A program made the translations under genes and the position numbers. Source: Candidatus Saccharimonadota bacterium (GTDB taxonomy: Bacteria > Pseudomonadota > Gammaproteobacteria > Burkholderiales > Burkholderiaceae). Taken from it: 32,000 nucleotides of DNA. The notes beneath the pieces were generated by a model that saw nothing but the letters and a program-made list of their open reading frames with translations, was not told the origin of the DNA and searched no databases. The stretch is from contig NZ_OZ026462.1 in NCBI RefSeq assembly GCF_964019745.1, positions 120,001 through 152,000 on the forward strand, in the 5' to 3' direction. This document shows, piece after piece, positions 3,236 through 30,433 of the stretch. The first letter of the stretch is position 1. Each line of letters begins with the position of its first letter.

Positions 3236-3417
3236 AATTATATATTTTTCAAAAATTATTTTAAAAAAATATTTATATATTTATAATAATATATATTATT
3301 TATATATAATAAAAAAATAAAATATATATAATATATATTATTTTATATATTATTATAAATAATATATATTTAATATATATTAAAATTTAAAAATAATATT
3401 ATTAATATTTATAAAAT

Positions 3418-3555
3418 ATGAAAAGAACTTATCAACCATCTAAAATAAAACGTAAAAGAACTCATGGATTTAGAAAAAGAATGTCAACTAAAAATGGTAA
3501 AAATATTTTAAATTCAAGAAGATTAAAAAAAAGAAAATTTTTAATTAATTTATAA
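3418..3555 (+). CDS. rpmH: 50S ribosomal protein L34
   Basis: Hand translation gives [45 protein letters not shown] (45 aa), the canonical L34 sequence. It is too short for the supplied ORF track. Confidence 0.95.
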
Positions 3556-3569
3556 TTTTTATAAAATTT

Positions 3570-3886: not shown

Positions 3887-3925
3887 AATTTTTTATATTA
3901 TATAATATATATTTTATATTAATTT

Positions 3926-5458: not shown

Positions 5459-5461
5459 AAT

Positions 5462-6868: not shown

Positions 6869-6890
6869 TATTTTTAAAAAAAATAAATAA

Positions 6891-8783
6891 ATGTTATTAA
6901 CAGATATATTTGATGTAATTGTTGTAGGTGGTGGACATGCTGGTATTGAAGCAGCATCAGTTGCATCAAGAATGAAATCTAAAACTCTTCTTTTAACAGA
7001 TAATATTGATACAATTGGACAAATGTCTTGTAATCCTTCTATAGGAGGAATAGGAAAAGGACATTTAGTTAAAGAAATTGATGCTATGGGAGGAATTATG
7101 CCTATTATAACAGATAAAGCAGGAATACATTTTAAAACATTAAATACTTCAAAAGGAGCAGCGGTTCAATCCACTAGAGTACAAGTAGATAAAATCTTAT
7201 ATAAAATTTTTATAAGACAAACATTAGAAAAAGAAAAAAATCTTTTAATTTTTCAAGAAACAATTGATAATATTAAAATTAAAAATAATAAAATTATTGG
7301 AGTAATTACTCAATCTGGACTTTTATTAAAATGTAAATCAGTAATATTAACTACTGGAACTTTTTTAAATGGAAAAATTCATATAGGTTCATATAATTAT
7401 AAATCTGGACGTTTAGGTGAAAAATCTTCTATAAATTTATCAAAAAATTTAAATGAATTAAATATTCCTAAAAAAAGATTAAAAACAGGAACACCACCAA
7501 GAATTGATGCAAGAAGTATAAATTTTTTAAAGTTAAAAAAACATAAAGGTGATAAAAATCCTATACCATTTTTTTCTATTATGAGTAATAATGAAAAAAA
7601 TAAAAAACAAAAAAATTGTTGGATAACTAAAACTAACAATAATACACGTGAAATAATTATAAAAAATATTAAAAAAAATCCAATGTATTCAGGGATAATT
7701 AAAGGAATAGGCCCTAGATATTGTCCTTCTATAGAAGAAAAATTTTTAAAATTTCCAGAAAAAAAATCACATAAAATTTATTTAGAAATGGAAAGTTCAA
7801 AAAATAATGAAATTTATCCTAATGGAATTTCTACTAGTTTTTCTTTTGAAATTCAATTAAAAATTTTACATTCTATAAAAGGTTTAGAAAATGCTCATAT
7901 TTTAAGACCTGGATATGCTATAGAATATGATTGTTTTGATCCTAAATTTTTAAAATTAACTTTAGAAACAAAAGAAATTTCAGGTTTATATTTTGCAGGA
8001 CAAATAAATGGAACTACTGGTTATGAAGAAGCAGCTTCACAAGGTTTATTAGCAGGGATAAATGCTTCTTTAAATGCATCTTATAAAGAACAATGGTTTC
8101 CTAAAAGAAATGAAGCATATTTAGGAGTATTAATAGATGATTTAACAACACAAAGTATTAATGAACCTTATAGAATGTTTACTAGTAGAGCTGAATATAG
8201 ATTATATTTAAGAGAAGATAATGCAGATTATCGTTTAACAAAAATTGCAAAAAGTTTAGGTTGTATAAAAAAAAAACAATGGCAACTTTTTAAAAAAAAA
8301 AAAAAAATAATTAATAATGAAATTAAAAGATTAAAAACAATATGGATAAATCCAAAAATTATTAAAAAAAAAGAAATTAAAAGAATTTTATTAAAATCTA
8401 TAAAAAAAGAATATAATTTTTATAATTTATTAAAAAGACCATATATAACTTATGAAAAATTATTATCTATGTTAGATATTAATAATAAATTAATTACTAA
8501 TTATAAAATAACTAATAAAAAAATTTCTAAAGAAATAAATATAAAAATAAAATATGAAGGATATATTAAAAAAGAATATAAAAATATTATTAATCATAAT
8601 AAATACGAAAATATAAAATTACCATATAATTTTAATTATATGAATATTAAAACATTATCTAATGAAGCAAAAGAAAAACTTAATAAATATAAACCAAAAA
8701 CAATTGGTCAAGCTTCTAAAATTTCTGGTATAACTTTTTCATCAATATCAATATTAATAATATTATTTAAATATAAAAAATAA
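6891..8783 (+). CDS. mnmG: tRNA uridine-5-carboxymethylaminomethyl synthesis enzyme MnmG (GidA)
   Basis: 630 aa with an N-terminal FAD fold ([15 protein letters not shown]), plus [11 protein letters not shown] and GYAIEYD motifs typical of GidA. Confidence 0.95.
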
Positions 8784-8793
8784 TTATTTTTAT

Positions 8794-9437
8794 ATGAAAT
8801 ATATAAGTGATATATTAAAAAAAAATTCTAAAAAAATAGGAGTTTTTTTAAAAAAAAATCAAATTAAAAAAATATTAAAATTTATTTTTTTAATAAAAAA
8901 ATGGAATAAAATTTATAATTTAACTTCTATAAAAACATCTAAAAAAATTATTTTTTTTCATATTTTAGATTCTTTAACAATTATAAAATATTTAAAAAAT
9001 AAAAATTATATTTTAGATGTTGGTTCAGGTGTAGGATTACCTGGAATAATAATTGCTATTTTATTAGAAAAAATATCTCCTAAAACTAAAATACATTTAA
9101 TAGATTCAAAAAATAAAAAAATAATATTTTTAAATCAAGTAAAAATAGAATTAAATTTAAAAAATATATCTATATTTTTAACAAGAGTAGAAAATTTTAA
9201 AAAAAAAAATTTTACGATATAATTATATCAAGAAGTTTAACAAATATAAAACAATTTATTAAATGGGCAAAACATTTATTAAAATTTAATGGATTTTTTT
9301 TTGCTATGAAAACAATAATTTCAAAAAAAGAAATTAATAATATACCTAAAAAATGGACAATTATAAAAAAAATATTTTTTAAAATTCCTAAAATTAAAAA
9401 AAAACATTTTTTAATAATAATTTCAAAAAAAAAATAA
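8794..9437 (+). CDS. rsmG: 16S rRNA (guanine527-N7)-methyltransferase RsmG (GidB), interrupted by a frame change in an A11 tract
   Basis: The tracked ORF 8794-9222 carries WNKIYNLTS ... HILDS ... LDVGSGVGLPGIIIAI ... LIDS-x-x-KK-x-x-FL and stops at TAA 9220-9222. The -1 frame continues from the A-run (9199-9209) as FYDIIISRSLTNIKQFIKWAKHLLKFNGFFFAMK... to TAA 9435-9437. This matches the conserved RsmG C-terminal half (FD-x-V-x-SRA ... G ... KG). Confidence 0.8.
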
Positions 9438-9442
9438 TTAAT

Positions 9443-10081
9443 ATGTTTAATATAAATATAATTGATAAAGGTAAAGAAGATTATAAAATAACATTTAAAA
9501 AAATGATTAATTTTATTAAAAAAAGAAATAAAAATACTATTAATGAAATATGGATTGTTGAACATAATCCATGTTTTACATTAGGTTTAAATGCAAATAT
9601 AAAAAATATTATTAATGCACATAATATTCCAATTATTAAAACAGATAGAGGAGGAGATGTAACTTATCATGGACCAGGTCAAATAGTAATTTACTTTTTA
9701 TTAAATTTATTTAAAAAAATTATTAAAAATAAATTTTATTTATTTAAATTTATTAATATTTTAGAAAATTCTATTATTGATACATTAAAAATGTATAACA
9801 TAAATAGTAAAAAAAAAAAAAAACCTGGAATTTATATAAGTAATGGTTTTTGGAAAAATGCAAAAATTGCTTTTTTAGGTTTAAAAATAACTAAAAAATA
9901 TTATACATATCATGGTATTTCTTTAAATATAAATATGAATTTAAAACCTTTTGAATATATTTATCCATGTGGATGTAAAAATATTAAAATTGTAGATATA
10001 AAAACTTTAAATTCTAAAATTTCTAAAAAAAATATAAAAAAAAATTTTATTAAAAAAATAATTTATTATTTAAATAAATAA
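9443..10081 (+). CDS. lipB: Octanoyltransferase (lipoate-protein ligase B)
   Basis: 212 aa with VEHNPCFTLG, the RGGDVTYHGPGQIVIY motif and the catalytic-Cys context YPCG. Confidence 0.9.
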   Translation: MFNINIIDKGKEDYKITFKKMINFIKKRNKNTINEIWIVEHNPCFTLGLNANIKNIINAHNIPIIKTDRGGDVTYHGPGQIVIYFLLNLFKKIIKNKFYLFKFINILENSIIDTLKMYNINSKKKKKPGIYISNGFWKNAKIAFLGLKITKKYYTYHGISLNINMNLKPFEYIYPCGCKNIKIVDIKTLNSKISKKNIKKNFIKKIIYYLNK

Positions 10082-10089
10082 ATTATATT

Positions 10090-10968
10090 ATGAATAATAA
10101 TAAAAAAATAATTAAAAAACCTAAATGGTTAAAAATAAAAACAAATTTTGAAAATAAAAATTTTTTTTCAATGAAAAAAATTTTAAAAATAAATAAAATT
10201 ATTACTGTATGTGAAGAAGCTGCTTGTCCAAATATTATAAAATGTTTTACAAAAGGTATTGCTACATTTATGATAATGGGAAATAAATGTACTAGAAAAT
10301 GTTTTTTTTGTAATATTAAAAATGGAAAACCAACAAAAATTGATATTAATGAACCAAAAAATATAGCAAATATAATTTTAAAATTAAAACTTGATTATGT
10401 TGTTATTACTAGTGTTACTAGAGATGATTTAAAAGATGGAGGTGCTGAACAATTTGCTAAATGTATAAAAAATATACGTAAAATATCTCCTAAAACTAAA
10501 ATAGAAATTTTAGTACCTGATTTTAAAAAAAAAAATAATTTAGCTATTAAAATTTTAAGTAAAAATTTACCAGATGTTATAAATCATAATATTGAAACTA
10601 CTTATAGATTATATAAAAAAATTAAACCAGGAGGAAATTATTTTAATTCATTAAAATTATTAAAAAAAATAAAATTAAATTTTCCTAATTTATTAACAAA
10701 ATCTGGATTAATAATAGGTTTAGGTGAAACTGATGAAGAAATTTTAAATACAATATATGATATTAAAAAAAATAATGTTGATATTTTAACTATTGGACAA
10801 TATTTAATGCCAACAAAAAAACATATTCCAGTTCATAGATATATAAAAAAAATAAAATTTAAAAAATTTAAAAAAGAAGCTTATAAATTAGGTTTTAAAA
10901 CTGTTATATCAGGACCTTTAGTAAGATCTAGTTATAAAGCTAATAAAATTTTTAAAAAAAAAAAATAA
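10090..10968 (+). CDS. lipA: Lipoyl synthase (radical SAM)
   Basis: 292 aa with the auxiliary cluster motif CEEAACPNIIKC, the radical-SAM motif CTRKCFFC and a C-terminal RSSY. Confidence 0.95.
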   Translation: MNNNKKIIKKPKWLKIKTNFENKNFFSMKKILKINKIITVCEEAACPNIIKCFTKGIATFMIMGNKCTRKCFFCNIKNGKPTKIDINEPKNIANIILKLKLDYVVITSVTRDDLKDGGAEQFAKCIKNIRKISPKTKIEILVPDFKKKNNLAIKILSKNLPDVINHNIETTYRLYKKIKPGGNYFNSLKLLKKIKLNFPNLLTKSGLIIGLGETDEEILNTIYDIKKNNVDILTIGQYLMPTKKHIPVHRYIKKIKFKKFKKEAYKLGFKTVISGPLVRSSYKANKIFKKKK

Positions 10969-11095
10969 AATATTTTTTTAAAAATATAAATTTATTGACT
11001 TTTGCAGAAAAAAAGTATATTTTATAAAAATACTCTTTAAAAATTTTTTTTTAAAAAAAAATTTTCTTTTAAAAAAAAAAAAAATATTTTTATAT

Positions 11096-11593
11096 ATAAA
11101 TTATATTTAGAAAATAAATTTTTAATTAAAGATTATTTAAAATTAAATTTAAATTAATAAATTATATTTAGAAAATAAATTTTTAATTAAAGATTATTTA
11201 AAATTAAATTTAAATTAATAAATTATATTTAGAAAATAAATTTTTAATTAAAGATTATTTAAAATTAAATTTAAATTAATAAATTATATTTAGAAAATAA
11301 ATTTTTAATTAAAGATTATTTAAAATTAAATTTAAATTAATAAATTATATTTAGAAAATAAATTTTTAATTAAAGATTATTTAAAATTAAATTTAAATTA
11401 ATAAATTATATTTAGAAAATAAATTTTTAATTAAAGATTATTTAAAATTAAATTTAAATTAATAAATTATATTTAGAAAATAAATTTTTAATTAAAGATT
11501 ATTTAAAATTAAATTTAAATTAATAAATTATATTTAGAAAATAAATTTTTAATTAAAGATTATTTAAAATTAAATTTAAATTAATAAATTATA
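11096..11593. repeat. Tandem array 1: 61-bp unit x about 8.2, all copies identical
   Basis: The unit is AAATTATATTTAGAAAATAAATTTTTAATTAAAGATTATTTAAAATTAAATTTAAATTAAT. In the 60-column listing each successive line is shifted by exactly 1 nt with no substitution. Confidence 0.95.
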
Positions 11594-11624
11594 CAAATAA
11601 TATTTATTAATATTTTATTTAAAT

Positions 11625-11706
11625 TTAATTATTTTTATAATAAATATAAAAATATTATTTAAATAAATTATTTTAATAATTATTATTAATTAATATTTAA
11701 TTAAAT
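11625..11706. repeat. Left copy of an approximately 82-bp direct repeat bracketing array 2
   Basis: TTAATTATTTTTATAATAAATATAAAAATATTATTTAAATAAATTATTTTAATAATTATTATTAATTAATATTTAATTAAATT aligns with 19761-19842, with about 5 mismatches in the hand alignment. Confidence 0.8.
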
Positions 11707-11708
11707 TA

Positions 11709-14700
11709 GTTATTAAATAATGTTTTATTAAATTAATTTTATAACTATTAGATTAGTTTTATAACTATTGGATTAGTTTTATAACGAGTTAAATTATTAA
11801 ATAATATTTTATTAGATTAACTTTATAACAAATTAAGTTATTAAATAATGTTTTATTAGATTAGTTTTATAACTATTAGATTAGTTTTATAACGAGTTAA
11901 ATTATTAAATAATATTTTATTAGATTAGTTTTATAACAAATTAAGTTATTAAATAATGTTTTATTAGATTAGTTTTATAACAAATTAAGTTATTAAATAA
12001 TGTTTTATTAGATTAATTTTATAACTATTAGATTAGTTTTATAACGAGTTAAATTATTAAATAATGTTTTATTAGATTAGTTTTATAACAAATTAAGTTA
12101 TTAAATAATGTTTTATTAGATTAGTTTTATAACAAATTAAGTTATTAAATAATGTTTTATTAGATTAGTTTTATAACAAATTAAGTTATTAAATAATGTT
12201 TTATTAGATTAGCTTTATAACAAATTAAGTTATTAAATAATGTTTTATTAGATTAGTTTTATAACAAATTAAGTTATTAAATAATGTTTTATTAGATTAA
12301 TTTTATAACTATTAGATTAGTTTTATAATGAGTTAAATTATTAAATAATGTTTTATTAGATTAGTTTTATAACAAATTAAGTTATTAAATAATGTTTTAT
12401 TAGATTAGCTTTATAACAAATTAAGTTATTAAATAATGTTTTATTAGATTAGTTTTATAACAAATTAAGTTATTAAATAATGTTTTATTAGATTAGTTTT
12501 ATAACAAATTAAGTTATTAAATAATGTTTTATTAGATTAGTTTTATAACAAATTAAGTTATTAAATAATGTTTTATTAGATTAATTTTATAACTATTAGA
12601 TTAGTTTTATAATGAGTTAAATTATTAAATAATGTTTTATTAGATTAGTTTTATAACAAATTAAGTTATTAAATAATGTTTTATTAGATTAGCTTTATAA
12701 CAAATTAAGTTATTAAATAATGTTTTATTAGATTAGTTTTATAACAAATTAAGTTATTAAATAATGTTTTATTAGATTAGTTTTATAACAAATTAAGTTA
12801 TTAAATAATGTTTTATTAGATTAATTTTATAACTATTAGATTAGTTTTATAATGAGTTAAATTATTAAATAATGTTTTATTAGATTAGTTTTATAACAAA
12901 TTAAGTTATTAAATAATGTTTTATTAGATTAGTTTTATAACAAATTAAGTTATTAAATAATGTTTTATTAGATTAGTTTTATAACAAATTAAGTTATTAA
13001 ATAATGTTTTATTAGATTAGTTTTATAACAAATTAAGTTATTAAATAATGTTTTATTAGATTAATTTTATAACTATTAGATTAGTTTTATAATGAGTTAA
13101 ATTATTAAATAATGTTTTATTAGATTAGTTTTATAACAAATTAAGTTATTAAATAATGTTTTATTAGATTAGTTTTATAACAAATTAAGTTATTAAATAA
13201 TGTTTTATTAGATTAGTTTTATAACAAATTAAGTTATTAAATAATGTTTTATTAGATTAATTTTATAACTATTAGATTAGTTTTATAACGAGTTAAATTA
13301 TTAAATAATGTTTTATTAGATTAGTTTTATAACAAATTAAGTTATTAAATAATGTTTTATTAGATTAGTTTTATAACAAATTAAGTTATTAAATAATGTT
13401 TTATTAGATTAATTTTATAACTATTAGATTAGTTTTATAATGAGTTAAATTATTAAATAATGTTTTATTAGATTAGTTTTATAACAAATTAAGTTATTAA
13501 ATAATGTTTTATTAGATTAGTTTTATAACAAATTAAGTTATTAAATAATGTTTTATTAGATTAGCTTTATAACAAATTAAGTTATTAAATAATGTTTTAT
13601 TAGATTAGTTTTATAACAAATTAAGTTATTAAATAATGTTTTATTAGATTAGTTTTATAACAAATTAAGTTATTAAATAATGTTTTATTAGATTAATTTT
13701 ATAACTATTAGATTAGTTTTATAACGAGTTAAATTATTAAATAATGTTTTATTAGATTAGTTTTATAACAAATTAAGTTATTAAATAATGTTTTATTAGA
13801 TTAGTTTTATAACAAATTAAGTTATTAAATAATGTTTTATTAGATTAGTTTTATAACAAATTAAGTTATTAAATAATGTTTTATTAGATTAGTTTTATAA
13901 CAAATTAAGTTATTAAATAATGTTTTATTAGATTAATTTTATAACTATTAGATTAGTTTTATAATGAGTTAAATTATTAAATAATGTTTTATTAGATTAG
14001 TTTTATAACAAATTAAGTTATTAAATAATGTTTTATTAGATTAGCTTTATAACAAATTAAGTTATTAAATAATGTTTTATTAGATTAGTTTTATAACAAA
14101 TTAAGTTATTAAATAATGTTTTATTAGATTAATTTTATAACTATTAGATTAGTTTTATAATGAGTTAAATTATTAAATAATGTTTTATTAGATTAGTTTT
14201 ATAACAAATTAAGTTATTAAATAATGTTTTATTAGATTAGTTTTATAACAAATTAAGTTATTAAATAATGTTTTATTAGATTAGTTTTATAACAAATTAA
14301 GTTATTAAATAATGTTTTATTAGATTAATTTTATAACTATTAGATTAGTTTTATAATGAGTTAAATTATTAAATAATGTTTTATTAGATTAGTTTTATAA
14401 CAAATTAAGTTATTAAATAATGTTTTATTAGATTAGCTTTATAACAAATTAAGTTATTAAATAATGTTTTATTAGATTAGTTTTATAATAAATTAAGTTA
14501 TTAAATAATGTTTTATTAGATTAGTTTTATAACAAATTAAGTTATTAAATAATGTTTTATTAGATTAATTTTATAACTATTAGATTAGTTTTATAACGAG
14601 TTAAATTATTAAATAATGTTTTATTAGATTAGTTTTATAACAAATTAAGTTATTAAATAATGTTTTATTAGATTAGTTTTATAACAAATAAAGTTATTAA

Positions 14701-17700
14701 ATAATGTTTTATTAGATTAGTTTTATAACAAATTAAGTTATTAAATAATGTTTTATTAGATTAGTTTTATAACAAATTAAGTTATTAAATAATGTTTTAT
14801 TAGATTAATTTTATAACTATTAGATTAGTTTTATAACGAGTTAAATTATTAAATAATGTTTTATTAGATTAGTTTTATAACAAATTAAGTTATTAAATAA
14901 TGTTTTATTAGATTAGCTTTATAACAAATTAAGTTATTAAATAATGTTTTATTAGATTAGTTTTATAACAAATTAAGTTATTAAATAATGTTTTATTAGA
15001 TTAGTTTTATAACAAATTAAGTTATTAAATAATGTTTTATTAGATTAATTTTATAACGAGTTAAATTATTAAATAATGTTTTATTAGATTAGTTTTATAA
15101 CAAATTAAGTTATTAAATAATGTTTTATTAGATTAGTTTTATAACAAATTAAGTTATTAAATAATGTTTTATTAGATTAATTTTATAACTATTAGATTAG
15201 TTTTATAACGAGTTAAATTATTAAATAATGTTTTATTAGATTAGTTTTATAACAAATTAAGTTATTAAATAATGTTTTATTAGATTAGTTTTATAACAAA
15301 TTAAGTTATTAAATAATGTTTTATTAGATTAATTTTATAACTATTAGATTAGTTTTATAATGAGTTAAATTATTAAATAATGTTTTATTAGATTAGTTTT
15401 ATAACAAATTAAGTTATTAAATAATGTTTTATTAGATTAGCTTTATAACAAATTAAGTTATTAAATAATGTTTTATTAGATTAGTTTTATAACAAATTAA
15501 GTTATTAAATAATGTTTTATTAGATTAGTTTTATAACAAATTAAGTTATTAAATAATGTTTTATTAGATTAATTTTATAACTATTAGATTAGTTTTATAA
15601 CGAGTTAAATTATTAAATAATGTTTTATTAGATTAGTTTTATAACAAATTAAGTTATTAAATAATGTTTTATTAGATTAGTTTTATAACAAATTAAGTTA
15701 TTAAATAATGTTTTATTAGATTAATTTTATAACTATTAGATTAGTTTTATAACGAGTTAAATTATTAAATAATGTTTTATTAGATTAGTTTTATAACAAA
15801 TTAAGTTATTAAATAATGTTTTATTAGATTAGTTTTATAACAAATAAAGTTATTAAATAATGTTTTATTAGATTAGTTTTATAACAAATTAAGTTATTAA
15901 ATAATGTTTTATTAGATTAGTTTTATAACAAATTAAGTTATTAAATAATGTTTTATTAGATTAGTTTTATAACAAATAAAGTTATTAAATAATGTTTTAT
16001 TAGATTAGTTTTATAACAAATTAAGTTATTAAATAATGTTTTATTAGATTAGTTTTATAACAAATTAAGTTATTAAATAATGTTTTATTAGATTAATTTT
16101 ATAACTATTAGATTAGTTTTATAACAAATTAAGTTATTAAATAATGTTTTATTAGATTAGCTTTATAACAAATTAAGTTATTAAATAATGTTTTATTAGA
16201 TTAGTTTTATAACAAATTAAGTTATTAAATAATGTTTTATTAGATTAGTTTTATAACAAATTAAGTTATTAAATAATGTTTTATTAGATTAGTTTTATAA
16301 CAAATTAAGTTATTAAATAATGTTTTATTAGATTAATTTTATAACTATTAGATTAGTTTTATAACAAATTAAGTTATTAAATAATGTTTTATTAGATTAG
16401 CTTTATAACAAATTAAGTTATTAAATAATGTTTTATTAGATTAGTTTTATAACAAATTAAGTTATTAAATAATGTTTTATTAGATTAGCTTTATAACAAA
16501 TTAAGTTATTAAATAATGTTTTATTAGATTAGTTTTATAACAAATTAAGTTATTAAATAATGTTTTATTAGATTAGTTTTATAACAAATTAAGTTATTAA
16601 ATAATGTTTTATTAGATTAATTTTATAACTATTAGATTAGTTTTATAACGAGTTAAATTATTAAATAATGTTTTATTAGATTAGTTTTATAACAAATTAA
16701 GTTATTAAATAATGTTTTATTAGATTAGTTTTATAACAAATAAAGTTATTAAATAATGTTTTATTAGATTAGTTTTATAACAAATTAAGTTATTAAATAA
16801 TGTTTTATTAGATTAATTTTATAACTATTAGATTAGTTTTATAACGAGTTAAATTATTAAATAATGTTTTATTAGATTAGTTTTATAACAAATTAAGTTA
16901 TTAAATAATGTTTTATTAGATTAGCTTTATAACAAATTAAGTTATTAAATAATGTTTTATTAGATTAGTTTTATAACAAATTAAGTTATTAAATAATGTT
17001 TTATTAGATTAGTTTTATAACAAATTAAGTTATTAAATAATGTTTTATTAGATTAATTTTATAACTATTAGATTAGTTTTATAACGAGTTAAATTATTAA
17101 ATAATGTTTTATTAGATTAGTTTTATAACAAATTAAGTTATTAAATAATGTTTTATTAGATTAGTTTTATAACAAATAAAGTTATTAAATAATGTTTTAT
17201 TAGATTAGTTTTATAACAAATTAAGTTATTAAATAATGTTTTATTAGATTAATTTTATAACTATTAGATTAGTTTTATAACGAGTTAAATTATTAAATAA
17301 TGTTTTATTAGATTAGTTTTATAACAAATTAAGTTATTAAATAATGTTTTATTAGATTAGCTTTATAACAAATTAAGTTATTAAATAATGTTTTATTAGA
17401 TTAGTTTTATAACAAATTAAGTTATTAAATAATGTTTTATTAGATTAGTTTTATAACAAATTAAGTTATTAAATAATGTTTTATTAGATTAATTTTATAA
17501 CGAGTTAAATTATTAAATAATGTTTTATTAGATTAGTTTTATAACAAATTAAGTTATTAAATAATGTTTTATTAGATTAGTTTTATAACAAATTAAGTTA
17601 TTAAATAATGTTTTATTAGATTAATTTTATAACTATTAGATTAGTTTTATAACGAGTTAAATTATTAAATAATGTTTTATTAGATTAGTTTTATAACAAA

Positions 17701-19759
17701 TTAAGTTATTAAATAATGTTTTATTAGATTAGTTTTATAACAAATTAAGTTATTAAATAATGTTTTATTAGATTAATTTTATAACTATTAGATTAGTTTT
17801 ATAATGAGTTAAATTATTAAATAATGTTTTATTAGATTAGTTTTATAACAAATTAAGTTATTAAATAATGTTTTATTAGATTAGCTTTATAACAAATTAA
17901 GTTATTAAATAATGTTTTATTAGATTAGTTTTATAACAAATTAAGTTATTAAATAATGTTTTATTAGATTAGTTTTATAACAAATTAAGTTATTAAATAA
18001 TGTTTTATTAGATTAATTTTATAACTATTAGATTAGTTTTATAACGAGTTAAATTATTAAATAATGTTTTATTAGATTAGTTTTATAACAAATTAAGTTA
18101 TTAAATAATGTTTTATTAGATTAGTTTTATAACAAATAAAGTTATTAAATAATGTTTTATTAGATTAGTTTTATAACAAATTAAGTTATTAAATAATGTT
18201 TTATTAGATTAGTTTTATAACAAATTAAGTTATTAAATAATGTTTTATTAGATTAGTTTTATAACAAATAAAGTTATTAAATAATGTTTTATTAGATTAG
18301 TTTTATAACAAATTAAGTTATTAAATAATGTTTTATTAGATTAGTTTTATAACAAATTAAGTTATTAAATAATGTTTTATTAGATTAATTTTATAACTAT
18401 TAGATTAGTTTTATAACAAATTAAGTTATTAAATAATGTTTTATTAGATTAGCTTTATAACAAATTAAGTTATTAAATAATGTTTTATTAGATTAGTTTT
18501 ATAACAAATTAAGTTATTAAATAATGTTTTATTAGATTAGTTTTATAACAAATTAAGTTATTAAATAATGTTTTATTAGATTAATTTTATAACGAGTTAA
18601 ATTATTAAATAATGTTTTATTAGATTAGTTTTATAACAAATTAAGTTATTAAATAATGTTTTATTAGATTAGTTTTATAACAAATTAAGTTATTAAATAA
18701 TGTTTTATTAGATTAATTTTATAACTATTAGATTAGTTTTATAACGAGTTAAATTATTAAATAATGTTTTATTAGATTAGTTTTATAACAAATTAAGTTA
18801 TTAAATAATGTTTTATTAGATTAGTTTTATAACAAATTAAGTTATTAAATAATGTTTTATTAGATTAATTTTATAACTATTAGATTAGTTTTATAATGAG
18901 TTAAATTATTAAATAATGTTTTATTAGATTAGTTTTATAACAAATTAAGTTATTAAATAATGTTTTATTAGATTAGCTTTATAACAAATTAAGTTATTAA
19001 ATAATGTTTTATTAGATTAGTTTTATAACAAATTAAGTTATTAAATAATGTTTTATTAGATTAGTTTTATAACAAATTAAGTTATTAAATAATGTTTTAT
19101 TAGATTAATTTTATAACTATTAGATTAGTTTTATAACGAGTTAAATTATTAAATAATGTTTTATTAGATTAGTTTTATAACAAATTAAGTTATTAAATAA
19201 TGTTTTATTAGATTAGTTTTATAACAAATAAAGTTATTAAATAATGTTTTATTAGATTAGTTTTATAACAAATTAAGTTATTAAATAATGTTTTATTAGA
19301 TTAGTTTTATAACAAATTAAGTTATTAAATAATGTTTTATTAGATTAGTTTTATAACTATTAGATTAGTTTTATAACGAGTTAAATTATTAAATAATGTT
19401 TTATTAGATTAGTTTTATAACAAATTAAGTTATTAAATAATGTTTTATTAGATTAGCTTTATAACAAATTAAGTTATTAAATAATGTTTTATTAGATTAG
19501 TTTTATAACAAATTAAGTTATTAAATAATGTTTTATTAGATTAGTTTTATAACAAATTAAGTTATTAAATAATGTTTTATTAGATTAATTTTATAACTAT
19601 TAGATTAGTTTTATAACGAGTTAAATTATTAAATAATGTTTTATTAGATTAGTTTTATAACAAATTAAGTTATTAAATAATGTTTTATTAGATTAGTTTT
19701 ATAACAAATAAAGTTATTAAATAATGTTTTATTAAATTAATTTTATAATAAATTAAGTT
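11709..19759. repeat. Tandem array 2: 44-bp basic unit with a 64-bp variant, about 167 units (8.05 kb), higher-order organised
   Basis: The consensus is GTTATTAAATAATGTTTTATTAGATTAGTTTTATAACAAATTAA. My hand parse gives about 133 units of 44 bp and about 34 units of 64 bp (one of them 84 bp). That sums to 8048 bp against 8051 bp observed. Confidence 0.95.
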
Positions 19760-19760
19760 A

Positions 19761-19842
19761 TTAATTATTTTTATAATAAACATAAAAATATTATTTAAAT
19801 AAATTAATTTAATAATTATTATTAAATAATATTTAAATTAAT
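19761..19842. repeat. Right copy of the approximately 82-bp direct repeat bracketing array 2
   Basis: TTAATTATTTTTATAATAAACATAAAAATATTATTTAAATAAATTAATTTAATAATTATTATTAAATAATATTTAAATTAATT begins 1 nt after the last 44-bp unit. A further partial copy (GTTATTAATTATTTTTAAT) occurs near 19856. Confidence 0.8.
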
Positions 19843-19938
19843 TAATTTTACAATAAGTTATTAATTATTTTTAATATTAAAAATAAAAAGATTATAATAT
19901 AAATATTAATATTTTAATAAATTTATATAAATAAATTA

Positions 19939-22900
19939 TTAGTTATTTTTATAAAAATATTAAAAAATAATTATTAATTTATTAATTTATTAATTTATTA
20001 ATTTATTAATTTATTAATTTATTAATTTATTAATTTATTAATTTATTAATTTATTAATTTATTAATTTATTAATTTATTAATTTATTAATTTAATATCAT
20101 TAATAAGATATAATAAATTAATATTTTTATTAATTTTTGTTTATATAAATAAAATATATATAAATTTATATATATAAATTGTTAATTATTTTTATTATAG
20201 TATTAAAAAATAATTAATAATTTATTAATTTAATATTTTAATAAAACTTAATGAATAAATATTATTATTAATTTTTAAATTTATTTTTTTTATATAGATA
20301 AAATATATATAAATTTATATAGGTAAATTGTTAATTATTTTTATTATAGTATTAAAAAATAATTAATAATTTATTAATTTAATATTTTAATAAAACTTAA
20401 TGAACAAATATTATTATTAATTTTTAAATTTATTTTTTTTATATAGATAAAATATATATAAATTTATATAGGTAAATTGTTAATTATTTTTATTATAGTA
20501 TTAAAAAATAATTAATAATTTATTAATTTAATATTTTAATAAAACTTAATGAACAAATATTATTATTAATTTTTAAATTTATTTTTTTTATATAGATAAA
20601 ATATATATAAATTTATATAGGTAAATTGTTAATTATTTTTATTATAGTATTAAAAAATAATTAATAATTTATTAATTTAATATTTTAATAAAACTTAATG
20701 AACAAATATTATTATTAATTTTTAAATTTATTTTTTTTATATAGATAAAATATATATAAATTTATATAGGTAAATTGTTAATTATTTTTATTATAGTATT
20801 AAAAAATAATTAATAATTTATTAATTTAATATTTTAATAAAACTTAATGAACAAATATTATTATTAATTTTTAAATTTATTTTTTTTATATAGATAAAAT
20901 ATATATAAATTTATATAGGTAAATTGTTAATTATTTTTATTATAGTATTAAAAAATAATTAATAATTTATTAATTTAATATTTTAATAAAACTTAATGAA
21001 CAAATATTATTATTAATTTTTAAATTTATTTTTTTTATATAGATAAAATATATATAAATTTATATAGGTAAATTGTTAATTATTTTTATTATAGTATTAA
21101 AAAATAATTAATAATTTATTAATTTAATATTTTAATAAAACTTAATAAACAAATATTATTATTAATTTTTAAATTTATTTTTTTTATATAGATAAAATAT
21201 ATATAAATTTATATAGGTAAATTGTTAATTATTTTTATTATAGTATTAAAAAATAATTAATAATTTATTAATTTAATATTTTAATAAAACTTAATGAACA
21301 AATATTATTATTAATTTTTAAATTTATTTTTTTTATATAGATAAAATATATATAAATTTATATAGGTAAATTGTTAATTATTTTTATTATAGTATTAAAA
21401 AATAATTAATAATTTATTAATTTATTAATTTAATATTTTAATAAAACTTAATGAACAAATATTATTATTAATTTTTAAATTTATTTTTTTTATATAGATA
21501 AAATATATATAAATTTATATAGGTAAATTGTTAATTATTTTTATTATAGTATTAAAAAATAATTAATAATTTATTAATTTAATATTTTAATAAAACTTAA
21601 TGAACAAATATTATTATTAATTTTTAAATTTATTTTTTTTATATAGATAAAATATATATAAATTTATATAGGTAAATTGTTAATTATTTTTATTATAGTA
21701 TTAAAAAATAATTAATAATTTATTAATTTATTAATTTAATATTTTAATAAAACTTAATGAACAAATATTATTATTAATTTTTAAATTTATTTTTTTTATA
21801 TAGATAAAATATATATAAATTTATATAGGTAAATTGTTAATTATTTTTATTATAGTATTAAAAAATAATTAATAATTTATTAATTTAATATTTTAATAAA
21901 ACTTAATGAACAAATATTATTATTAATTTTTAAATTTATTTTTTTTATATAGATAAAATATATATAAATTTATATAGGTAAATTGTTAATTATTTTTATT
22001 ATAGTATTAAAAGATAATTAATAATTTAATAATTTATTAATTTAATATTTTAATAAAACTTAATGAACAAATATTATTATTAATTTTTAAATTTATTTTT
22101 TTTATATAGATAAAATATATATAAATTTATATAGGTAAATTGTTAATTATTTTTATTATAGTATTAAAAAATAATTAATAATTTATTAATTTAATATTTT
22201 AATAAAACTTAATGAACAAATATTATTATTAATTTTTAAATTTATTTTTTTTATATAGATAAAATATATATAAATTTATATAGGTAAATTGTTAATTATT
22301 TTTATTATAGTATTAAAAAATAATTAATAATTTATTAATTTATTAATTTAATATTTTAATAAAACTTAATGAACAAATATTATTATTAATTTTTAAATTT
22401 ATTTTTTTTATATAGATAAAATATATATAAATTTATATAGGTAAATTGTTAATTATTTTTATTATAGTATTAAAAAATAATTAATAATTTATTAATTTAA
22501 TATTTTAATAAAACTTAATGAACAAATATTATTATTAATTTTTAAATTTATTTTTTTTATATAGATAAAATATATATAAATTTATATAGGTAAATTGTTA
22601 ATTATTTTTATTATAGTATTAAAAAATAATTAATAATTTATTAATTTATTAATTTAATATTTTAATAAAACTTAATGAACAAATATTATTATTAATTTTT
22701 AAATTTATTTTTTTTATATAGATAAAATATATATAAATTTATATAGGTAAATTGTTAATTATTTTTATTATAGTATTAAAAAATAATTAATAATTTATTA
22801 ATTTAATATTTTAATAAAACTTAATGAACAAATATTATTATTAATTTTTAAATTTATTTTTTTTATATAGATAAAATATATATAAATTTATATAGGTAAA

Positions 22901-23186
22901 TTGTTAATTATTTTTATTATAGTATTAAAAAATAATTAATAATTTATTAATTTATTAATTTATTAATTTAATATTTTAATAAAACTTAATGAACAAATAT
23001 TATTATTAATTTTTAAATTTATTTTTTTTATATAGATAAAATATATATAAATTTATATAGATAAATTGTTAATTATTTTTATTATAGTATTAAAAAATAA
23101 TTAATAATTTATTAATTTATTAATTTAATATTTTATTAAAATTTAATAAATAAATATTTTTATTTATATAAATAAAATATATATTT
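19939..23186. repeat. Tandem array 3: 149-bp unit x 19 full copies, plus a degenerate first unit and a partial last unit
   Basis: The unit is TTAATTATTTTTATTATAGTATTAAAAAATAATTAATAATTTATTAATTTAATATTTTAATAAAACTTAATGAACAAATATTATTATTAATTTTTAAATTTATTTTTTTTATATAGATAAAATATATATAAATTTATATAGGTAAATTG. Unit starts are 20182, 20331, ... 23069. Unit lengths are 149 (x13), 157 (x5) and 165 (x1). Confidence 0.95.
19971..20093. repeat. 8-bp microsatellite (TTATTAAT) x about 15, lying inside the degenerate first unit of array 3
   Basis: Perfect period-8 run. The same motif is present in 2-4 copies inside every 149-bp unit. Confidence 0.95.
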
Positions 23187-23214
23187 TTTTAATTAAAAAT
23201 TTTAATAAATTATT

Positions 23215-23316
23215 AATTATTTAAAATTATTTAAAATTATTTAAAATTATTTAAAATTATTTAAAATTATTTAAAATTATTTAAAATTATTTAAAATTAT
23301 TTAAAATTATTTAAAA
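23215..23316. repeat. 10-bp tandem repeat (TTAAAATTAT) x about 10, a phased A4 tract
   Basis: Perfect period-10 run, ending about 300 bp upstream of the 16S 5' end. Confidence 0.95.
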
Positions 23317-23340
23317 AAATATTAAAAATTTTTTTAAATA

Positions 23341-23369
23341 TTGTTTACTTTTTAAATAAAATATAATAT
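23341..23369 (+). promoter_or_regulatory. Candidate sigma70-type promoter for the rRNA operon (weak call)
   Basis: TTGTTT (23341-46) is followed by N15 then TATAAT (23362-67), or by N17 then TAATAT. It lies about 255 bp upstream of the 16S gene. -10-like hexamers occur by chance everywhere in DNA this AT-rich. Confidence 0.2.
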
Positions 23370-23619
23370 AATATATTAAAAGAATATTTTATATTTATAT
23401 AAAAAAAATTATATAATTTAATTTAAAAAAAATTATTTTAATTTTTTGAAAATAATAATATATTGATAATAAAAATTATATTAAAAATTATATATAATAT
23501 TTAATTATATTATATTAATTTAATTAATTTTTAAATATAAATTTTATTTTTATTAAAAGTTTTTTTGTTTTTGTAAAATTTTTATAAGTATTTAAAATAA
23601 ATTATAAGTTATTTTTTTA

Positions 23620-25163
<1,544 letters not shown>

Positions 25164-25292
25164 TAGAGGAACATAAAATTAAATATTTATATTTATTATT
25201 ATTTTATTTTTTACTAAATAGAGTAAGATTTTTTTGAGAAACAAAATATATTAAAAAAATATATTAATTTTTAAGATTTATTTAATATTATA

Positions 25293-28202
<2,910 letters not shown>

Positions 28203-28291
28203 ATGATATTTTTATTTTAAATAAAAAAAAATTTTATTTTTAAATTTTATATAAATTTAAAAATAAAATTTTTAAAATTATTATTTTAATT

Positions 28292-28408
28292 AGCCTGATA
28301 ATCATAGCGAATTGGAACCACTCTTTACCATTCCGAACAAGAAAGTGAAACGATTTTGCGCCGATGATAGTACTATAACTAGTGTGAAAGTAGGTAATTA
28401 TCAGGTTA
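28292..28408 (+). rRNA. rrf: 5S ribosomal RNA
   Basis: AGCCTGATAATCATAGCG ... CCGAAC-x-GAAGTGAAAC ... GCGCCGATGATAGT ... GTAGGTAATTATCAGGTT is collinear with the E. coli 5S. Confidence 0.9.
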
Positions 28409-30286: not shown

Positions 30287-30433
30287 AAATTTATTTATTA
30301 AAATTATTTTTTATTAAAAATATTTTTTATTAAAAATATTATATATATAATATATATTATATATATTTATAAAAGGTAAATTAATATAAATTGTATAAAT
30401 AGTATTTTATAAAAATTATTAAATATTTTTAAT

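What the first reader, a model, noticed from the sequence alone, without database searches (positions are those of the whole stretch)
10969..23619. 12.65-kb non-coding satellite island between lipA and the rRNA operon in an otherwise ultra-compact genome
lipA stops at 10968 and the 16S gene starts at about 23620. The 12,651 bp between them has no ORF of 60 aa or more on either strand, no G+C island that could be a tRNA or ncRNA, and no transposase or integrase. It is almost wholly tandem repeats from five families (61 bp, 44/64 bp, 8 bp, 149 bp, 10 bp). Elsewhere in the window, spacers are 3-180 bp and some genes overlap. Tiny endosymbiont genomes are known for streamlining and near absence of repeats, so a satellite-like block covering about 40% of a 32-kb window is highly anomalous. 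Copies are near-identical, which implies ongoing homogenisation or very recent expansion. Possible explanations (all inference):
- a replication origin or terminus, or a nucleoid or host-protein binding platform
- an architectural upstream element of the rRNA operon
- selfish slippage-driven satellite DNA tolerated after loss of repair
- a mis-assembly or chimera with host satellite DNA
Basis: partly seen in the sequence, partly recalled or inferred. Interest (0 to 1): 0.9.

Follow-up and report, generated by a model that had tools for sequence, protein, structure and literature searches.

The report
Giant tandem-repeat spacer upstream of rRNA operon
A 12.65-kb gene-free block made almost entirely of head-to-tail DNA repeats lies between lipA and the 16S rRNA gene of a tiny spittlebug symbiont (Zinderia of Aphrophora alni); it is real in the sequence and most likely runaway, functionless repeat expansion, an extreme case of something already seen in a few other degenerate symbiont genomes.

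Summary
lipA ends at 10968 and 16S starts at 23620. The 12,651 bp between them has no open frame over 54 codons in code 11 or code 4, no Rfam or tRNA hit, and 9.0% G+C.

Tandem arrays make up 11,811 bp and only about 840 bp is unique. There are three minisatellite families:
- 61 bp x 8.2 copies
- 44 bp (167 units plus 35 partial 20-mers, in higher-order patterns)
- 149/157 bp x about 20

There are also two microsatellites. The 8-bp one is nested in the 149-bp unit. The 10-bp one ends 28 bp before a promoter-like site upstream of 16S.

The window comes from 'Candidatus Zinderia endosymbiont of Aphrophora alni' (336,619-bp contig).

Evidence for in-situ, neutral expansion by slippage or unequal exchange:
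- array centres are homogeneous and array edges have decayed to A/T
- G/C positions are the variable ones
- the 44-bp array splits an older ~105-bp repeat
- other spacers in the window also carry repeats

The strand-composition switch that would mark an origin lies at the rpsP|rpmH spacer (~3.3 kb), not at the island. I found no DnaA boxes, dif, parS, mobile-element features, unusual curvature or surplus promoters.

Precedents exist in Portiera and Nasuia. Read-level validation and a comparison with host DNA are still needed.

The parts
10090..10968 (+). lipA (lipoyl synthase), left boundary gene; last gene of the + strand run rpmH-(rnpA)-yidC-mnmE-mnmG-rsmG-lipB-lipA
   Evidence: ORF. NCBIfam TIGR00510 366 bits. 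The exact sequence is WP_339045105, Zinderia endosymbiont of Aphrophora alni.
10969..11095 (+). Unique spacer of 127 bp (7.1% G+C). It contains the promoter-like block TTGACT-17 nt-TATTTT at 10995-11023.
   Evidence: Promoter scan. The block ATTGACTTTTG-N3-AAAAAAAGTATA is conserved downstream of lipA in a second Zinderia-like lineage whose LipA is 80% identical (L082).
11096..11593 (.). 61-bp minisatellite, 8.2 copies, 100% identical, 3.2% G+C (G 16, C 0)
   Evidence: TRF score 996; sequence read; composition.
11594..11725 (.). Spacer A, a remnant of an older ~105-bp repeat. 11625-11700 is about 96% identical to 19761-19836 on the far side of the 44-bp array.
   Evidence: blastn of the two flanks; TRF period 105 at 19707-19934.
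11726..19773 (.). 44-bp minisatellite of 8,048 bp: 167 full units plus 35 partial 20-bp units that make 64-bp composite units. Higher-order periods are 152, 196 and 240 bp. A 34-unit block is duplicated. The first units and the last unit are degenerate. G+C is 11.7%.
   Evidence: 104 of 167 units are identical to the consensus. Variants C, D, E and F are shared in higher-order patterns.
19774..19970 (.). Spacer B, with decayed copies of the 44-bp unit and of the older ~105-bp repeat; 2.5% G+C
19971..20093 (.). 8-bp microsatellite TTATTAAT x 15.4, 100% identical. It is the expanded form of a motif that occurs 1-3 times inside every 149-bp unit.
20094..23133 (.). 149/157-bp minisatellite of about 20 units: 19 full units, 10 of them identical. 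Lengths of 149 and 157 alternate because of the nested 8-bp motif. The first and last units have lost their G residues. G+C is 5.1%.
   Evidence: TRF period 149 (95% matches) and period 306 (98% matches); parsing; sequence.
23134..23214 (.). Spacer C, a decayed partial 149-bp unit, 0% G+C
23215..23316 (.). 10-bp microsatellite AATTATTTAA x 10.2, 100% identical. It ends 28 bp upstream of the -35-like hexamer at 23344.
   Evidence: Predicted curvature is only modest: end-to-end/contour ratio 0.914 against a shuffle mean of 0.965 and shuffle minimum of 0.863.
23317..23619 (+). Unique 303-bp spacer before 16S. The best promoter-like site is TTTACT-17-TATAAT at 23344-23372. Weaker sites start at 23463 and 23571.
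   Evidence: Promoter scan: 10 of 12 matches. Such matches are common in this A+T-rich DNA, so this is a candidate only.
23620..28406 (+). rRNA operon, right boundary: 16S 23620-25163, 23S 25296-28202, 5S 28294-28406. There is no tRNA in the 132-bp internal spacer.
   Evidence: Rfam hits of 1502.7, 2688.8 and 78.6 bits; ARAGORN.

Best explanation
The island is the intergenic spacer between the lipA operon and the rRNA operon of a Zinderia-like spittlebug symbiont. Repeated rounds of tandem duplication have inflated it from under about 1 kb to 12.65 kb.

Proposed mechanism (inferred):
- Replication slippage and/or unequal sister-chromosome exchange in extremely A+T-rich, low-complexity DNA creates short duplications.
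- Once two copies exist, misalignment adds or removes whole units and blocks of units.
- Array interiors are therefore continually homogenised, giving near-identical units, higher-order periods and kilobase-scale block duplications.
- Edge units drop out of the exchange and decay under the genome's extreme AT-biased mutation.

The arrays are nested in time. An older ~105-bp repeat was split by the 44-bp array, and an 8-bp microsatellite grew inside the 149-bp unit.

The DNA is probably carried passively. It persists because selection against extra DNA is weak in a small, clonal, vertically inherited population. It lies in a spacer that has to stay open anyway, because it holds the rRNA promoter and leader.

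What is shown: the anatomy, the decay pattern and the absence of coding, RNA, origin or mobile-element features. What is inferred: the slippage mechanism and the lack of function.
For: 1. Anatomy typical of unequal-exchange arrays. In the 44-bp array 104 of 167 units are identical. The remaining variation is almost all shared variants arranged in higher-order patterns (AABC, ABE, AD...). A 34-unit block is duplicated 46 units away. The first six units and the last unit are degenerate.

2. Neutral, AT-biased decay. Four-fold sites in the flanking genes have 1.3-2.2% G+C. In the 44-bp unit, 4 of 5 G/C positions vary against 5 of 39 A/T positions (Fisher p=0.004). The terminal unit keeps 1 of 5 G/C. 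The edge units of the 149-bp array have lost their G residues, and 3 of its 4 SNPs are G/C to A/T.

3. Local origin. The two flanks of the 44-bp array are about 96% identical over about 76 bp and belong to an older ~105-bp repeat. The 8-bp array is a motif of the 149-bp unit.

4. A genome-wide habit. The other spacers in the window also carry tandem repeats: 2919-3014, 3255-3424, 30275-30546, and a 9-bp unit x 18.8 at 31174-31342.

5. Composition fits the local neutral strand bias. On the + strand the island's A/T ratio is 0.88, between 1.00 for the left flank and 0.73 for the right flank at four-fold sites. G is at least as frequent as C in every array and in all but the first 127-bp spacer (G 4, C 5), as it is in the rRNA spacers.

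6. Nothing functional was detected. There are no ORFs, tRNAs or Rfam hits. Unit folding energies are not below shuffles, with z from -1.2 to +0.6. Predicted curvature is unremarkable. Promoter-like sites in the arrays are at or below shuffle expectation. DnaA-box-like matches in the window are fewer than in shuffles and only one lies in the island; there is no parS or dif. Inverted repeats are only about 70% complementary and there is no transposase.

7. Precedent. Portiera from B. tabaci has enlarged repetitive intergenic regions together with loss of dnaQ, mutL and other replication and repair genes (PMC3673631). All Nasuia genomes have a large non-coding region with two tandem repeats and a 98.3% A+T stretch (PMC5533117).
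Against: 1. The 44-bp unit has 5 G/C in 44 positions (11.7%), far above the roughly 2% neutral level. A founder unit drawn from equilibrium spacer would rarely have that many (P about 0.002-0.01). The founder may therefore have been a functional or formerly genic sequence, or the G/C positions may be maintained.

2. A G/C-containing promoter-like block immediately upstream of the island is conserved in a second lineage. The island may therefore be transcribed, and transcription could matter.

3. Positional conservation of a repeat-rich non-coding region across Nasuia genomes hints that such regions may not be pure junk in this symbiont clade.

4. No sister genome could be retrieved for the lipA-rrs interval. 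Whether the island is lineage-specific is unknown.

5. No reads were available, so copy numbers are unverified.
Confidence: 0.62

Rival explanations
1. Functional upstream region or long leader of the rRNA operon. In one version the arrays act as a spacer-enhancer-like or architectural platform that boosts rRNA transcription by binding nucleoid protein or RNA polymerase. In another they are transcribed from the conserved promoter-like site just after lipA as a very long leader. This would parallel the tandem sub-repeats in eukaryotic rDNA intergenic spacers.
For: The island sits directly upstream of the only rRNA operon in the window and is co-oriented with it. A TTGACT-17-TATTTT block at 10995-11023 is conserved in a lineage whose LipA is 80% identical, even though neutral G+C is about 2%. 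No terminator-like site was found in any of the four stretches scanned (10800-11700, 12040-12530, 20390-20850, 23000-23700). The 10-bp (one helical turn) array ends 28 bp upstream of the best 16S-proximal promoter-like site. The 44-bp unit has more G+C than neutral DNA.
Against: Promoter-like sites inside the arrays are not enriched over shuffles. Predicted curvature of the 61-, 44- and 149-bp arrays equals or is below the window median, and the 10-bp array lies within its shuffle range. G/C positions of the units are the most variable positions, not the most protected. No shared motif or structure was found across families. A 12-kb untranslated leader has no bacterial precedent that I know of (own knowledge).
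Confidence: 0.12
2. Replication origin or terminus. The arrays would be iteron-like or unwinding elements of a DnaA-independent origin, or a fork-arrest or terminus zone.
For: The island is within about 7.5 kb of the classical origin-proximal gene cluster rpmH-rnpA-yidC-mnmE-mnmG-rsmG. It is extremely A+T-rich. Some other very small symbiont genomes are reported to lack dnaA, so their origins are unknown (own knowledge; whether this genome has dnaA was not determined). Insect mitochondrial control regions, which contain the origin, are also A+T-rich tandem-repeat blocks next to the small rRNA gene (PMC4186805, PMC4490450).
Against: The strand-composition switch lies elsewhere. The four-fold-site A/T ratio on the + strand is 2.29 left of 3.3 kb, in genes of both orientations, and 1.00 from rpmH to lipA (p=4e-7). 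It does not reverse across the island: 1.00 on the left, 0.73 on the right, island 0.88. The arrays contain no DnaA-box-like sites; the only 1-mismatch match in the island is at 11589, and the window total is below shuffle expectation. There is no credible dif and no parS.
Confidence: 0.05
3. Assembly artefact. Either the island is a chimera with host DNA (nuclear satellite or the mitochondrial control region), or array copy numbers are wrong, or lipA and rrs were falsely joined through the 8-kb 44-bp array.
For: The 44-bp array (8.05 kb) is close to the mean HiFi read length of the host project (68.61 Gb / 7.34 M reads = 9.3 kb; PMC11579584). The host mitogenome is reported as 27.61 kb, about 12 kb larger than other spittlebug mitogenomes (15.2-15.6 kb in PMC4186805). 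That excess is close to the 11.8 kb of arrays here. Philaenus spumarius has two tandem-repeat blocks in its control region (PMC4490450). No reads or host sequences were available to me.
Against: Both ends of every array grade through decayed units into spacers that look like symbiont DNA (0-7% G+C) and are contiguous with lipA or 16S within less than 4 kb, well inside single reads. The two flanks of the 44-bp array are paralogous, as expected for one locus. No mitochondrial gene, tRNA or rRNA fragment lies in the island. G+C of 0-12% is below that reported for cercopid control regions, about 17-24% from the base counts in Table 3 of PMC4186805. A/T and G/C asymmetry match the flanking symbiont DNA. 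The units are absent from the metagenome and viral collections searched. Copy number could still be imprecise or heteroplasmic.
Confidence: 0.07

Closest known systems
Expanded repetitive intergenic regions of 'Candidatus Portiera aleyrodidarum' from Bemisia tabaci (Sloan & Moran 2013, PMC3673631)
   Same: An obligate insect endosymbiont of about 0.3 Mb in which intergenic spacers have been inflated by proliferating tandem repeats. The repeats are interpreted there as a mutational consequence of lost replication and repair genes and a relaxed deletion bias.
   Different: Portiera's repeats are mostly short microsatellites (a spike at 7 bp) spread over many spacers. Here one spacer holds 11.8 kb of mini- and microsatellite arrays (8-, 10-, 44-, 61- and 149-bp units) with higher-order structure. 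The repair-gene content of this Zinderia could not be examined.
Large non-coding region between hisG and gltX in 'Candidatus Nasuia deltocephalinicola' genomes (Mao et al. 2017, PMC5533117)
   Same: A tiny betaproteobacterial symbiont of Auchenorrhyncha. A single large non-coding region contains two tandem repeats plus a 98.3% A+T stretch. Its function is stated to be unknown.
   Different: The flanking genes differ (hisG/gltX against lipA/rrs). The Nasuia region is positionally conserved across genomes, whereas conservation of this island is untested. The text I read does not give the region's size, so the scales could not be compared.
Insect mitochondrial A+T-rich control region, including the spittlebug Philaenus spumarius with two tandem-repeat blocks (PMC4490450, PMC4186805)
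   Same: An A+T-rich non-coding block built of tandem-repeat arrays, adjacent to the small-subunit rRNA gene, evolving fast by slippage, with variable length.
   Different: This is an analogy only. The control region contains the replication origin and transcription promoters, whereas the skew switch here lies 7.5 kb away from the island. The island is flanked by bacterial genes, has lower G+C, and contains no mitochondrial genes.
Eukaryotic rDNA intergenic spacer with tandem sub-repeats (spacer promoters or enhancers); own knowledge, not tested against any sequence
   Same: Several different tandem arrays lie immediately upstream of the rRNA transcription unit.
   Different: The units here do not duplicate the promoter region, and promoter-like sites are not enriched in them. 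There is no evidence of enhancer function. The system is bacterial with a single operon.
Bacterial VNTR or minisatellite loci
   Same: Head-to-tail repeats generated and resized by slipped-strand mispairing.
   Different: Typical bacterial VNTRs are tens to hundreds of bp (own knowledge). This block is 12.65 kb, or 3.8% of a 336.6-kb contig.

Membership tests
Tandem-repeat (mini/microsatellite) array evolving by slippage or unequal exchange | Head-to-tail copies with a fixed period and high identity | tested here: met
   TRF: 61 bp x 8.2 (100%), 8 bp x 15.4 (100%), 10 bp x 10.2 (100%), 149 bp x 20.2 (95%; 98% at period 306), 44 bp x about 180.
Tandem-repeat (mini/microsatellite) array evolving by slippage or unequal exchange | Homogeneous centre, degenerate edges, higher-order repeats and block duplications | tested here: met
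   Unit string. A 34-unit block is duplicated. The edge units I, G, J, K, G, L and N are degenerate. The last unit keeps 1 of 5 G/C.
Tandem-repeat (mini/microsatellite) array evolving by slippage or unequal exchange | Length polymorphism between and within individuals | not testable with these tools
   Needs the HiFi reads of ihAphAlni1 or PCR.
Portiera/Nasuia-type inflated repetitive intergenic region of a reduced endosymbiont | Obligate insect endosymbiont with a tiny, A+T-rich genome | tested here: met
   Exact protein matches to 'Ca. Zinderia endosymbiont of Aphrophora alni', contig 336,619 bp. Window G+C is 16.7%.
Portiera/Nasuia-type inflated repetitive intergenic region of a reduced endosymbiont | Non-coding spacer far larger than its neighbours and built of tandem repeats | tested here: met
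   12,651 bp against no more than about 210 bp for the other spacers. 93% of it is tandem arrays.
Portiera/Nasuia-type inflated repetitive intergenic region of a reduced endosymbiont | Associated loss of replication and repair genes (dnaQ, mutL, mutS, recA...) | not testable with these tools
   Only 32 kb of the genome is available. ruvX is present at 29299-29685. The rest of the genome is not in the searchable indexes.
Bacterial chromosomal origin (oriC) | Cluster of DnaA boxes | tested here: not met
   TTATNCACA with up to 1 mismatch: 33 matches in the window against 54 expected. One lies in the island (11589) and none inside an array unit.
Bacterial chromosomal origin (oriC) | Switch of strand compositional asymmetry at the locus | tested here: not met
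   The four-fold-site A/T ratio on the + strand switches at about 3.3 kb (2.29 to 1.00, p=4e-7). It does not reverse across the island (1.00 against 0.73).
Bacterial chromosomal origin (oriC) | A+T-rich unwinding element | tested here: inconclusive
   Every spacer in this genome is 93-100% A+T, so the criterion does not discriminate.
Replication terminus | dif site for XerCD | tested here: not met
   The only dif-consensus matches are low-complexity (TA)n-like sequences, essentially outside the arrays.
CRISPR array | Direct repeats separated by unique spacers of similar length; cas genes nearby | tested here: not met
   Units abut each other with no unique spacers. There are no cas-like ORFs in the window.
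Mobile element, prophage or integron | Transposase or integrase gene; terminal inverted repeats | tested here: not met
   No ORF reaches 55 codons. Inverted repeats are only about 70% complementary, as expected for A+T-rich DNA.
rRNA upstream activating region (UP element or curved DNA) | Intrinsically curved or phased A-tract DNA directly upstream of the -35 element | tested here: inconclusive
   Wedge-model end-to-end/contour ratios: 61-bp array 0.98, 149-bp array 0.974, 44-bp array 0.944, window median 0.958. The 10-bp array gives 0.914, within its shuffle range (minimum 0.863). The model parameters were recalled from memory. A phased A-tract control gave 0.51.
Host mitochondrial control region or host satellite (chimera) | Sequence identity to host mtDNA or nuclear DNA; flanking mitochondrial genes | not testable with these tools
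   Host sequences are not in any accessible collection. There are no mitochondrial tRNA or rRNA hits in the island. The host mitogenome is 27.61 kb, so the comparison should be made.

The most novel reading that the evidence does not exclude
The island is not junk. It is a functional non-coding module of a symbiont that has lost canonical regulators. One possibility is a transcribed region driven by the conserved promoter-like site at 10995. Its strongly G-over-C non-template strand (G:C 3.5:1) might support transcription-primed, DnaA-independent replication initiation. Another possibility is a protein-binding platform that sets rRNA operon output. Either would be a bacterial counterpart of the mitochondrial control region or of the eukaryotic rDNA spacer.
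Probability: 0.1. Interest if true: 0.85.

Novelty: new variant of a known kind. Interest (0 to 1): 0.5.

Why it matters
If the assembly is right, about 3.8% of a 336.6-kb symbiont chromosome is a single block of satellite-like DNA. That runs against the textbook picture of deletion-biased, repeat-free, maximally compact symbiont genomes. It extends the Portiera and Nasuia observations to minisatellite arrays with higher-order structure.

Short-read assemblies would collapse or break at such blocks, so published sizes and 'coding densities' of tiny symbiont genomes may be biased.

The contrast between homogeneous centres and A/T-decayed edges gives an internal clock for repeat turnover relative to the AT-biased mutation rate. 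This makes the locus a convenient marker for within-host heteroplasmy and bottleneck studies.

The locus also lies next to the rRNA operon and near the likely origin. A cheap RNA-seq or read-depth test could show whether such regions have any role in genomes that have lost most regulatory proteins.

Tried and rejected
- Sister-genome comparison failed.
  - A GTDB genome scan with LipA found nothing above 55% identity.
  - All three protein searches (LipA, RibE, MnmG) returned only two close relatives. Both are Logan contigs of 1.1-1.2 kb that end 2 and 77 bp after lipA. These contigs are short at both ends, so the break after lipA is not evidence of repeats there.
  - The window's own genome is not in the contig index.
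  - A metagenome scan with LipA found no relative.
- Repeat units were searched in the metagenome and viral collections, with no match.
- Rfam at E<=1 over the island found nothing.
- Single-strand folding of the units did not differ from shuffles.
- I looked for rRNA processing stems between the 16S flanks. The best duplex was no better than shuffles: 137 of 200 shuffles did as well.
- I looked for unit homology to any other part of the window, such as gene fragments that could have founded the arrays. Nothing exceeded shuffles.
- DnaA-box, parS and dif scans were negative.
- An inverted-repeat scan for mobile-element ends found only about 70% complementarity.
- Curvature modelling showed nothing unusual in the arrays.
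- The literature gave no description of this genome or of repeats in Zinderia. I could not obtain the P. spumarius control-region repeat sequences to compare.
- GC-skew windows alone were rejected as origin evidence, because they partly follow coding strand and protein composition. Four-fold-site A/T counts were used instead.

Full report
**1. Identity of the window**

Four proteins encoded in the window are exact matches to RefSeq proteins of 'Candidatus Zinderia endosymbiont of Aphrophora alni'. All are on one contig of 336,619 bp. The host genome project used PacBio HiFi: 68.61 Gb in 7.34 M reads, so a mean of about 9.3 kb (PMC11579584).

Gene order:
- cyoE (+), fumC (-), rplS (-), rpsP (-)
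- rpmH (+, 3418-3555), a broken rnpA-like stretch, yidC, mnmE, mnmG, rsmG, lipB, lipA (all +)
- the island
- 16S-23S-5S (+)
- infA, ribE, ruvX, yqgE (-)
- a LOG-family gene (+), tRNA-Lys (-), glyA (+)

**2.

lipA ends at 10968 and 16S begins at 23620. In the 12,651 bp between them:
- the longest stop-free frame is 49 codons (code 11) or 54 codons (code 4)
- ARAGORN finds no tRNA
- Rfam finds nothing even at E<=1
- G+C is 9.0% against 16% in the flanking coding DNA, with G 882 against C 254

TRF and my parsing resolve ten segments:

| Coordinates | Segment |
|---|---|
| 10969-11095 | 127-bp unique spacer |
| 11096-11593 | 61-bp array, 8.2 copies, 100% identical |
| 11594-11725 | spacer A |
| 11726-19773 | 44-bp array, 8,048 bp |
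| 19774-19970 | spacer B |
| 19971-20093 | 8-bp array, 15.4 copies, 100% identical |
| 20094-23133 | 149/157-bp array, about 20 units |
| 23134-23214 | spacer C |
| 23215-23316 | 10-bp array, 10.2 copies, 100% identical |
| 23317-23619 | 303-bp unique spacer |

Arrays sum to 11,811 bp and unique sequence to about 840 bp.

**3. Fine anatomy**

The 44-bp array has 167 full units, 104 of them identical to the consensus, with mean identity 97.9%. It also has 35 copies of a 20-bp partial unit. Each of these is usually followed by one particular variant, giving 64-bp composite units.

Almost all variation is shared. Variants C, D, E and F recur in patterns such as AABC, ABE and AD, which produce the 152-, 196- and 240-bp higher-order periods TRF reports. 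A block of 34 consecutive units is repeated 46 units further on. Private, degenerate units are concentrated in the first six positions and the last position.

The 149-bp array has 19 full units, 10 of them identical. Lengths alternate between 149 and 157 bp because an internal TTATTAAT motif is present 1-3 times. The same motif is expanded to 15 copies at the left edge of the array, and that expansion is the '8-bp family'. The leftmost and rightmost units have lost their G residues.

The two flanks of the 44-bp array (11625-11700 and 19761-19836) are about 96% identical. They belong to an older repeat of about 105 bp that still shows as 2.2 decayed copies at 19707-19934. The 44-bp array therefore grew inside an earlier array.

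**4. Signs of neutral evolution in place**

Four-fold degenerate sites of the 17 genes have 1.3-2.2% G+C. That estimates the mutational equilibrium. The spacers and the 61-, 8- and 10-bp arrays sit at that level (0-3%). The 149-bp array (5.1%) and the 44-bp array (11.7%) are above it.

Within the 44-bp unit, 4 of the 5 G/C positions vary among copies but only 5 of the 39 A/T positions do (Fisher p=0.004). The terminal unit keeps 1 of 5 G/C. In the 149-bp array, 3 of 4 SNPs are G/C to A/T, and the edge units have lost G.

This is the pattern expected if the units are unconstrained, interiors are repeatedly re-amplified from a few copies, and edges decay under AT-biased mutation. It also shows that the arrays have been resident in this A+T-driven genome long enough for their edges to decay. 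That argues against a recent foreign insertion or a chimeric join.

One point does not fit simple neutrality. A founder unit with 5 G/C in 44 bp is unlikely to arise from equilibrium spacer (P about 0.002-0.01).

**5. Not an origin or terminus by the tests available**

I expressed base counts at four-fold sites on the + strand.

| Region | A/T ratio at four-fold sites |
|---|---|
| Four genes left of 3.3 kb (both orientations: cyoE +, fumC/rplS/rpsP -) | 2.29 |
| rpmH to lipA | 1.00 |
| Genes right of 28.4 kb | 0.73 |
| Island (all bases) | 0.88 |

The left-to-middle change is abrupt (p=4e-7). It falls at the 182-bp rpsP|rpmH spacer (3236-3417), which is the classical position of dnaA/oriC next to rpmH (own knowledge). 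There is no reversal across the island (p=0.06, same direction).

DnaA-box-like sites are fewer than in shuffles, and none lies inside an array unit. There is no parS and no credible dif. The island is therefore about 7.5 kb to one side of the likely polarity switch. Its G>C and T>A composition fits that strand.

**6. No support for the other functional readings**

- Unit folding energies are not lower than shuffles.
- A wedge-model curvature scan puts the 61-, 149- and 44-bp arrays at or straighter than the window median. The 10-bp array is within its shuffle range (model parameters recalled from memory, positive control passed).
- Promoter-like matches inside the arrays are at or below shuffle expectation.
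- No unit matches any other part of the window better than shuffles.
- Inverted repeats are only about 70% complementary and no transposase or integrase is present.

Two candidate regulatory sites flank the arrays:
- TTGACT-17-TATTTT at 10995-11023. The block ATTGACTTTTG-N3-AAAAAAAGTATA is conserved downstream of lipA in a second Zinderia-like lineage whose LipA is 80% identical. That is notable where neutral G+C is about 2%.
- TTTACT-17-TATAAT at 23344-23372, about 250 bp before 16S and 28 bp after the 10-bp array.

Whether the first site drives transcription into the island is unknown.

**7. Assembly and chimera question**

I could not see reads or host DNA. Every junction between an array and unique sequence grades through decayed units. 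lipA is within 750 bp of the 44-bp array and 16S is within 3.9 kb of it. Ordinary HiFi reads would therefore anchor both sides, and only the 8-kb 44-bp array needs long reads. The paralogous flanks of that array indicate a single locus.

One caution remains. The host mitogenome is reported as 27.61 kb. That is about 12 kb more than other spittlebug mitogenomes, an excess similar to the 11.8 kb of arrays here. Spittlebug control regions also carry tandem repeats next to the small rRNA gene. The island has no mitochondrial genes, lower G+C than reported cercopid control regions, and symbiont-like strand bias, so I consider this a coincidence. A direct BLAST should still be run.

**8. Comparison with what is known**

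The closest precedents are:
- Portiera from Bemisia tabaci. Its intergenic regions are inflated by short tandem repeats, together with loss of dnaQ, mutL and other replication and repair genes (PMC3673631).
- Nasuia. All sequenced genomes have a large non-coding region with two tandem repeats and a 98.3% A+T stretch between hisG and gltX, of unknown function (PMC5533117).

The published Zinderia CARI genome is 208,564 bp, and its paper mentions no tandem or genomic repeats.

This island differs from the precedents in several ways:
- scale: 12.65 kb, 3.8% of the contig
- unit sizes: minisatellites with higher-order structure
- concentration in one spacer
- position directly upstream of the rRNA operon

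I class it as a new variant of a known kind.

**9. Verdict**

The feature is real in the sequence and striking in scale. The best explanation is runaway, probably functionless tandem-repeat expansion in the rRNA-upstream spacer of a degenerate symbiont genome (confidence about 0.6).

Rival readings:
- a functional or transcribed upstream module, about 0.12
- assembly error or host chimera, about 0.07
- origin or terminus, about 0.05

Read-level validation, a host-DNA comparison, sister-genome comparison and RNA-seq are the decisive missing steps.

Noticed in passing
window 3236-3417 (rpsP|rpmH spacer), with flanks 1-3235 and 3418-10968: The A/T ratio at four-fold sites on the + strand drops abruptly from 2.29 to 1.00 here, whatever the gene orientation (p=4e-7). 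The spacer is about 6% G+C with low-complexity tandem repeats (3255-3424) and lies next to rpmH. It is a candidate replication origin, or at least a strand-polarity switch, in a genome where no dnaA is seen in this neighbourhood.
   Followed up: partly
window 10994-11023 and L082 1167-1196: The block ATTGACTTTTG-N3-AAAAAAAGTATA (sigma-70-like TTGACT-17-TAxxxT) just downstream of lipA is conserved between this genome and a Logan contig from ERR14886530 whose LipA is 80% identical. Neutral G+C here is about 2%. It is probably a functional promoter or other signal, with an unknown target.
   Followed up: partly
window 3570-3925: An rnpA-like reading frame between rpmH and yidC (it contains a KRNAIKR-type motif) is interrupted by stops around long poly-A and poly-T runs. 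It is either a pseudogene or a gene that depends on slippage at homopolymers.
   Followed up: no
window 8794-9442: rsmG is only 142 aa and matches positions 2-109 of the 183-position profile. It is followed by a 220-bp spacer with unusually high G+C (12.3%) and short tandem repeats. The 3' part of the gene appears to be decaying.
   Followed up: no
window 31171-31376: The tRNA-Lys|glyA spacer is almost filled by a 9-bp microsatellite (TTATATATA x 18.8). Tandem repeats also occupy 2919-3014 and 30275-30546. Repeat-driven spacer growth is a general habit of this genome.
   Followed up: partly
all 17 coding sequences in the window: There are 35 in-frame TGG codons, no in-frame TGA, and every complete gene ends in TAA. 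This lineage therefore shows no sign of the UGA-to-Trp recoding reported for Zinderia CARI, where 96% of Trp codons are UGA (PMC2953269). It also carries ribE, lipA, lipB, ruvX and yqgE, and ribE and lipA had no close relative in the protein searches other than two Zinderia-like short contigs for LipA. The CARI 16S signature oligonucleotide is not found within 8 edits. This 'Zinderia' is much less reduced than the type genome and quite divergent from it.
   Followed up: partly
window 25164-25295: The 16S-23S internal spacer is only 132 bp and contains no tRNA genes.
   Followed up: no
literature (PMC11579584), not in the window: The host Aphrophora alni mitochondrial genome is reported as 27.61 kb, about 12 kb larger than other spittlebug mitogenomes. 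That excess is similar to the 11.8 kb of arrays in the symbiont island. It is probably a coincidence, or a parallel repeat expansion in two cytoplasmic genomes of the same host, but a direct sequence comparison is worth making.
   Followed up: partly
window 11726-19773: The 44-bp unit carries 5 G/C in 44 positions, about five times the neutral G+C of this genome. The founder sequence may have been a piece of formerly functional DNA. No match to any other part of the window was found.
   Followed up: partly
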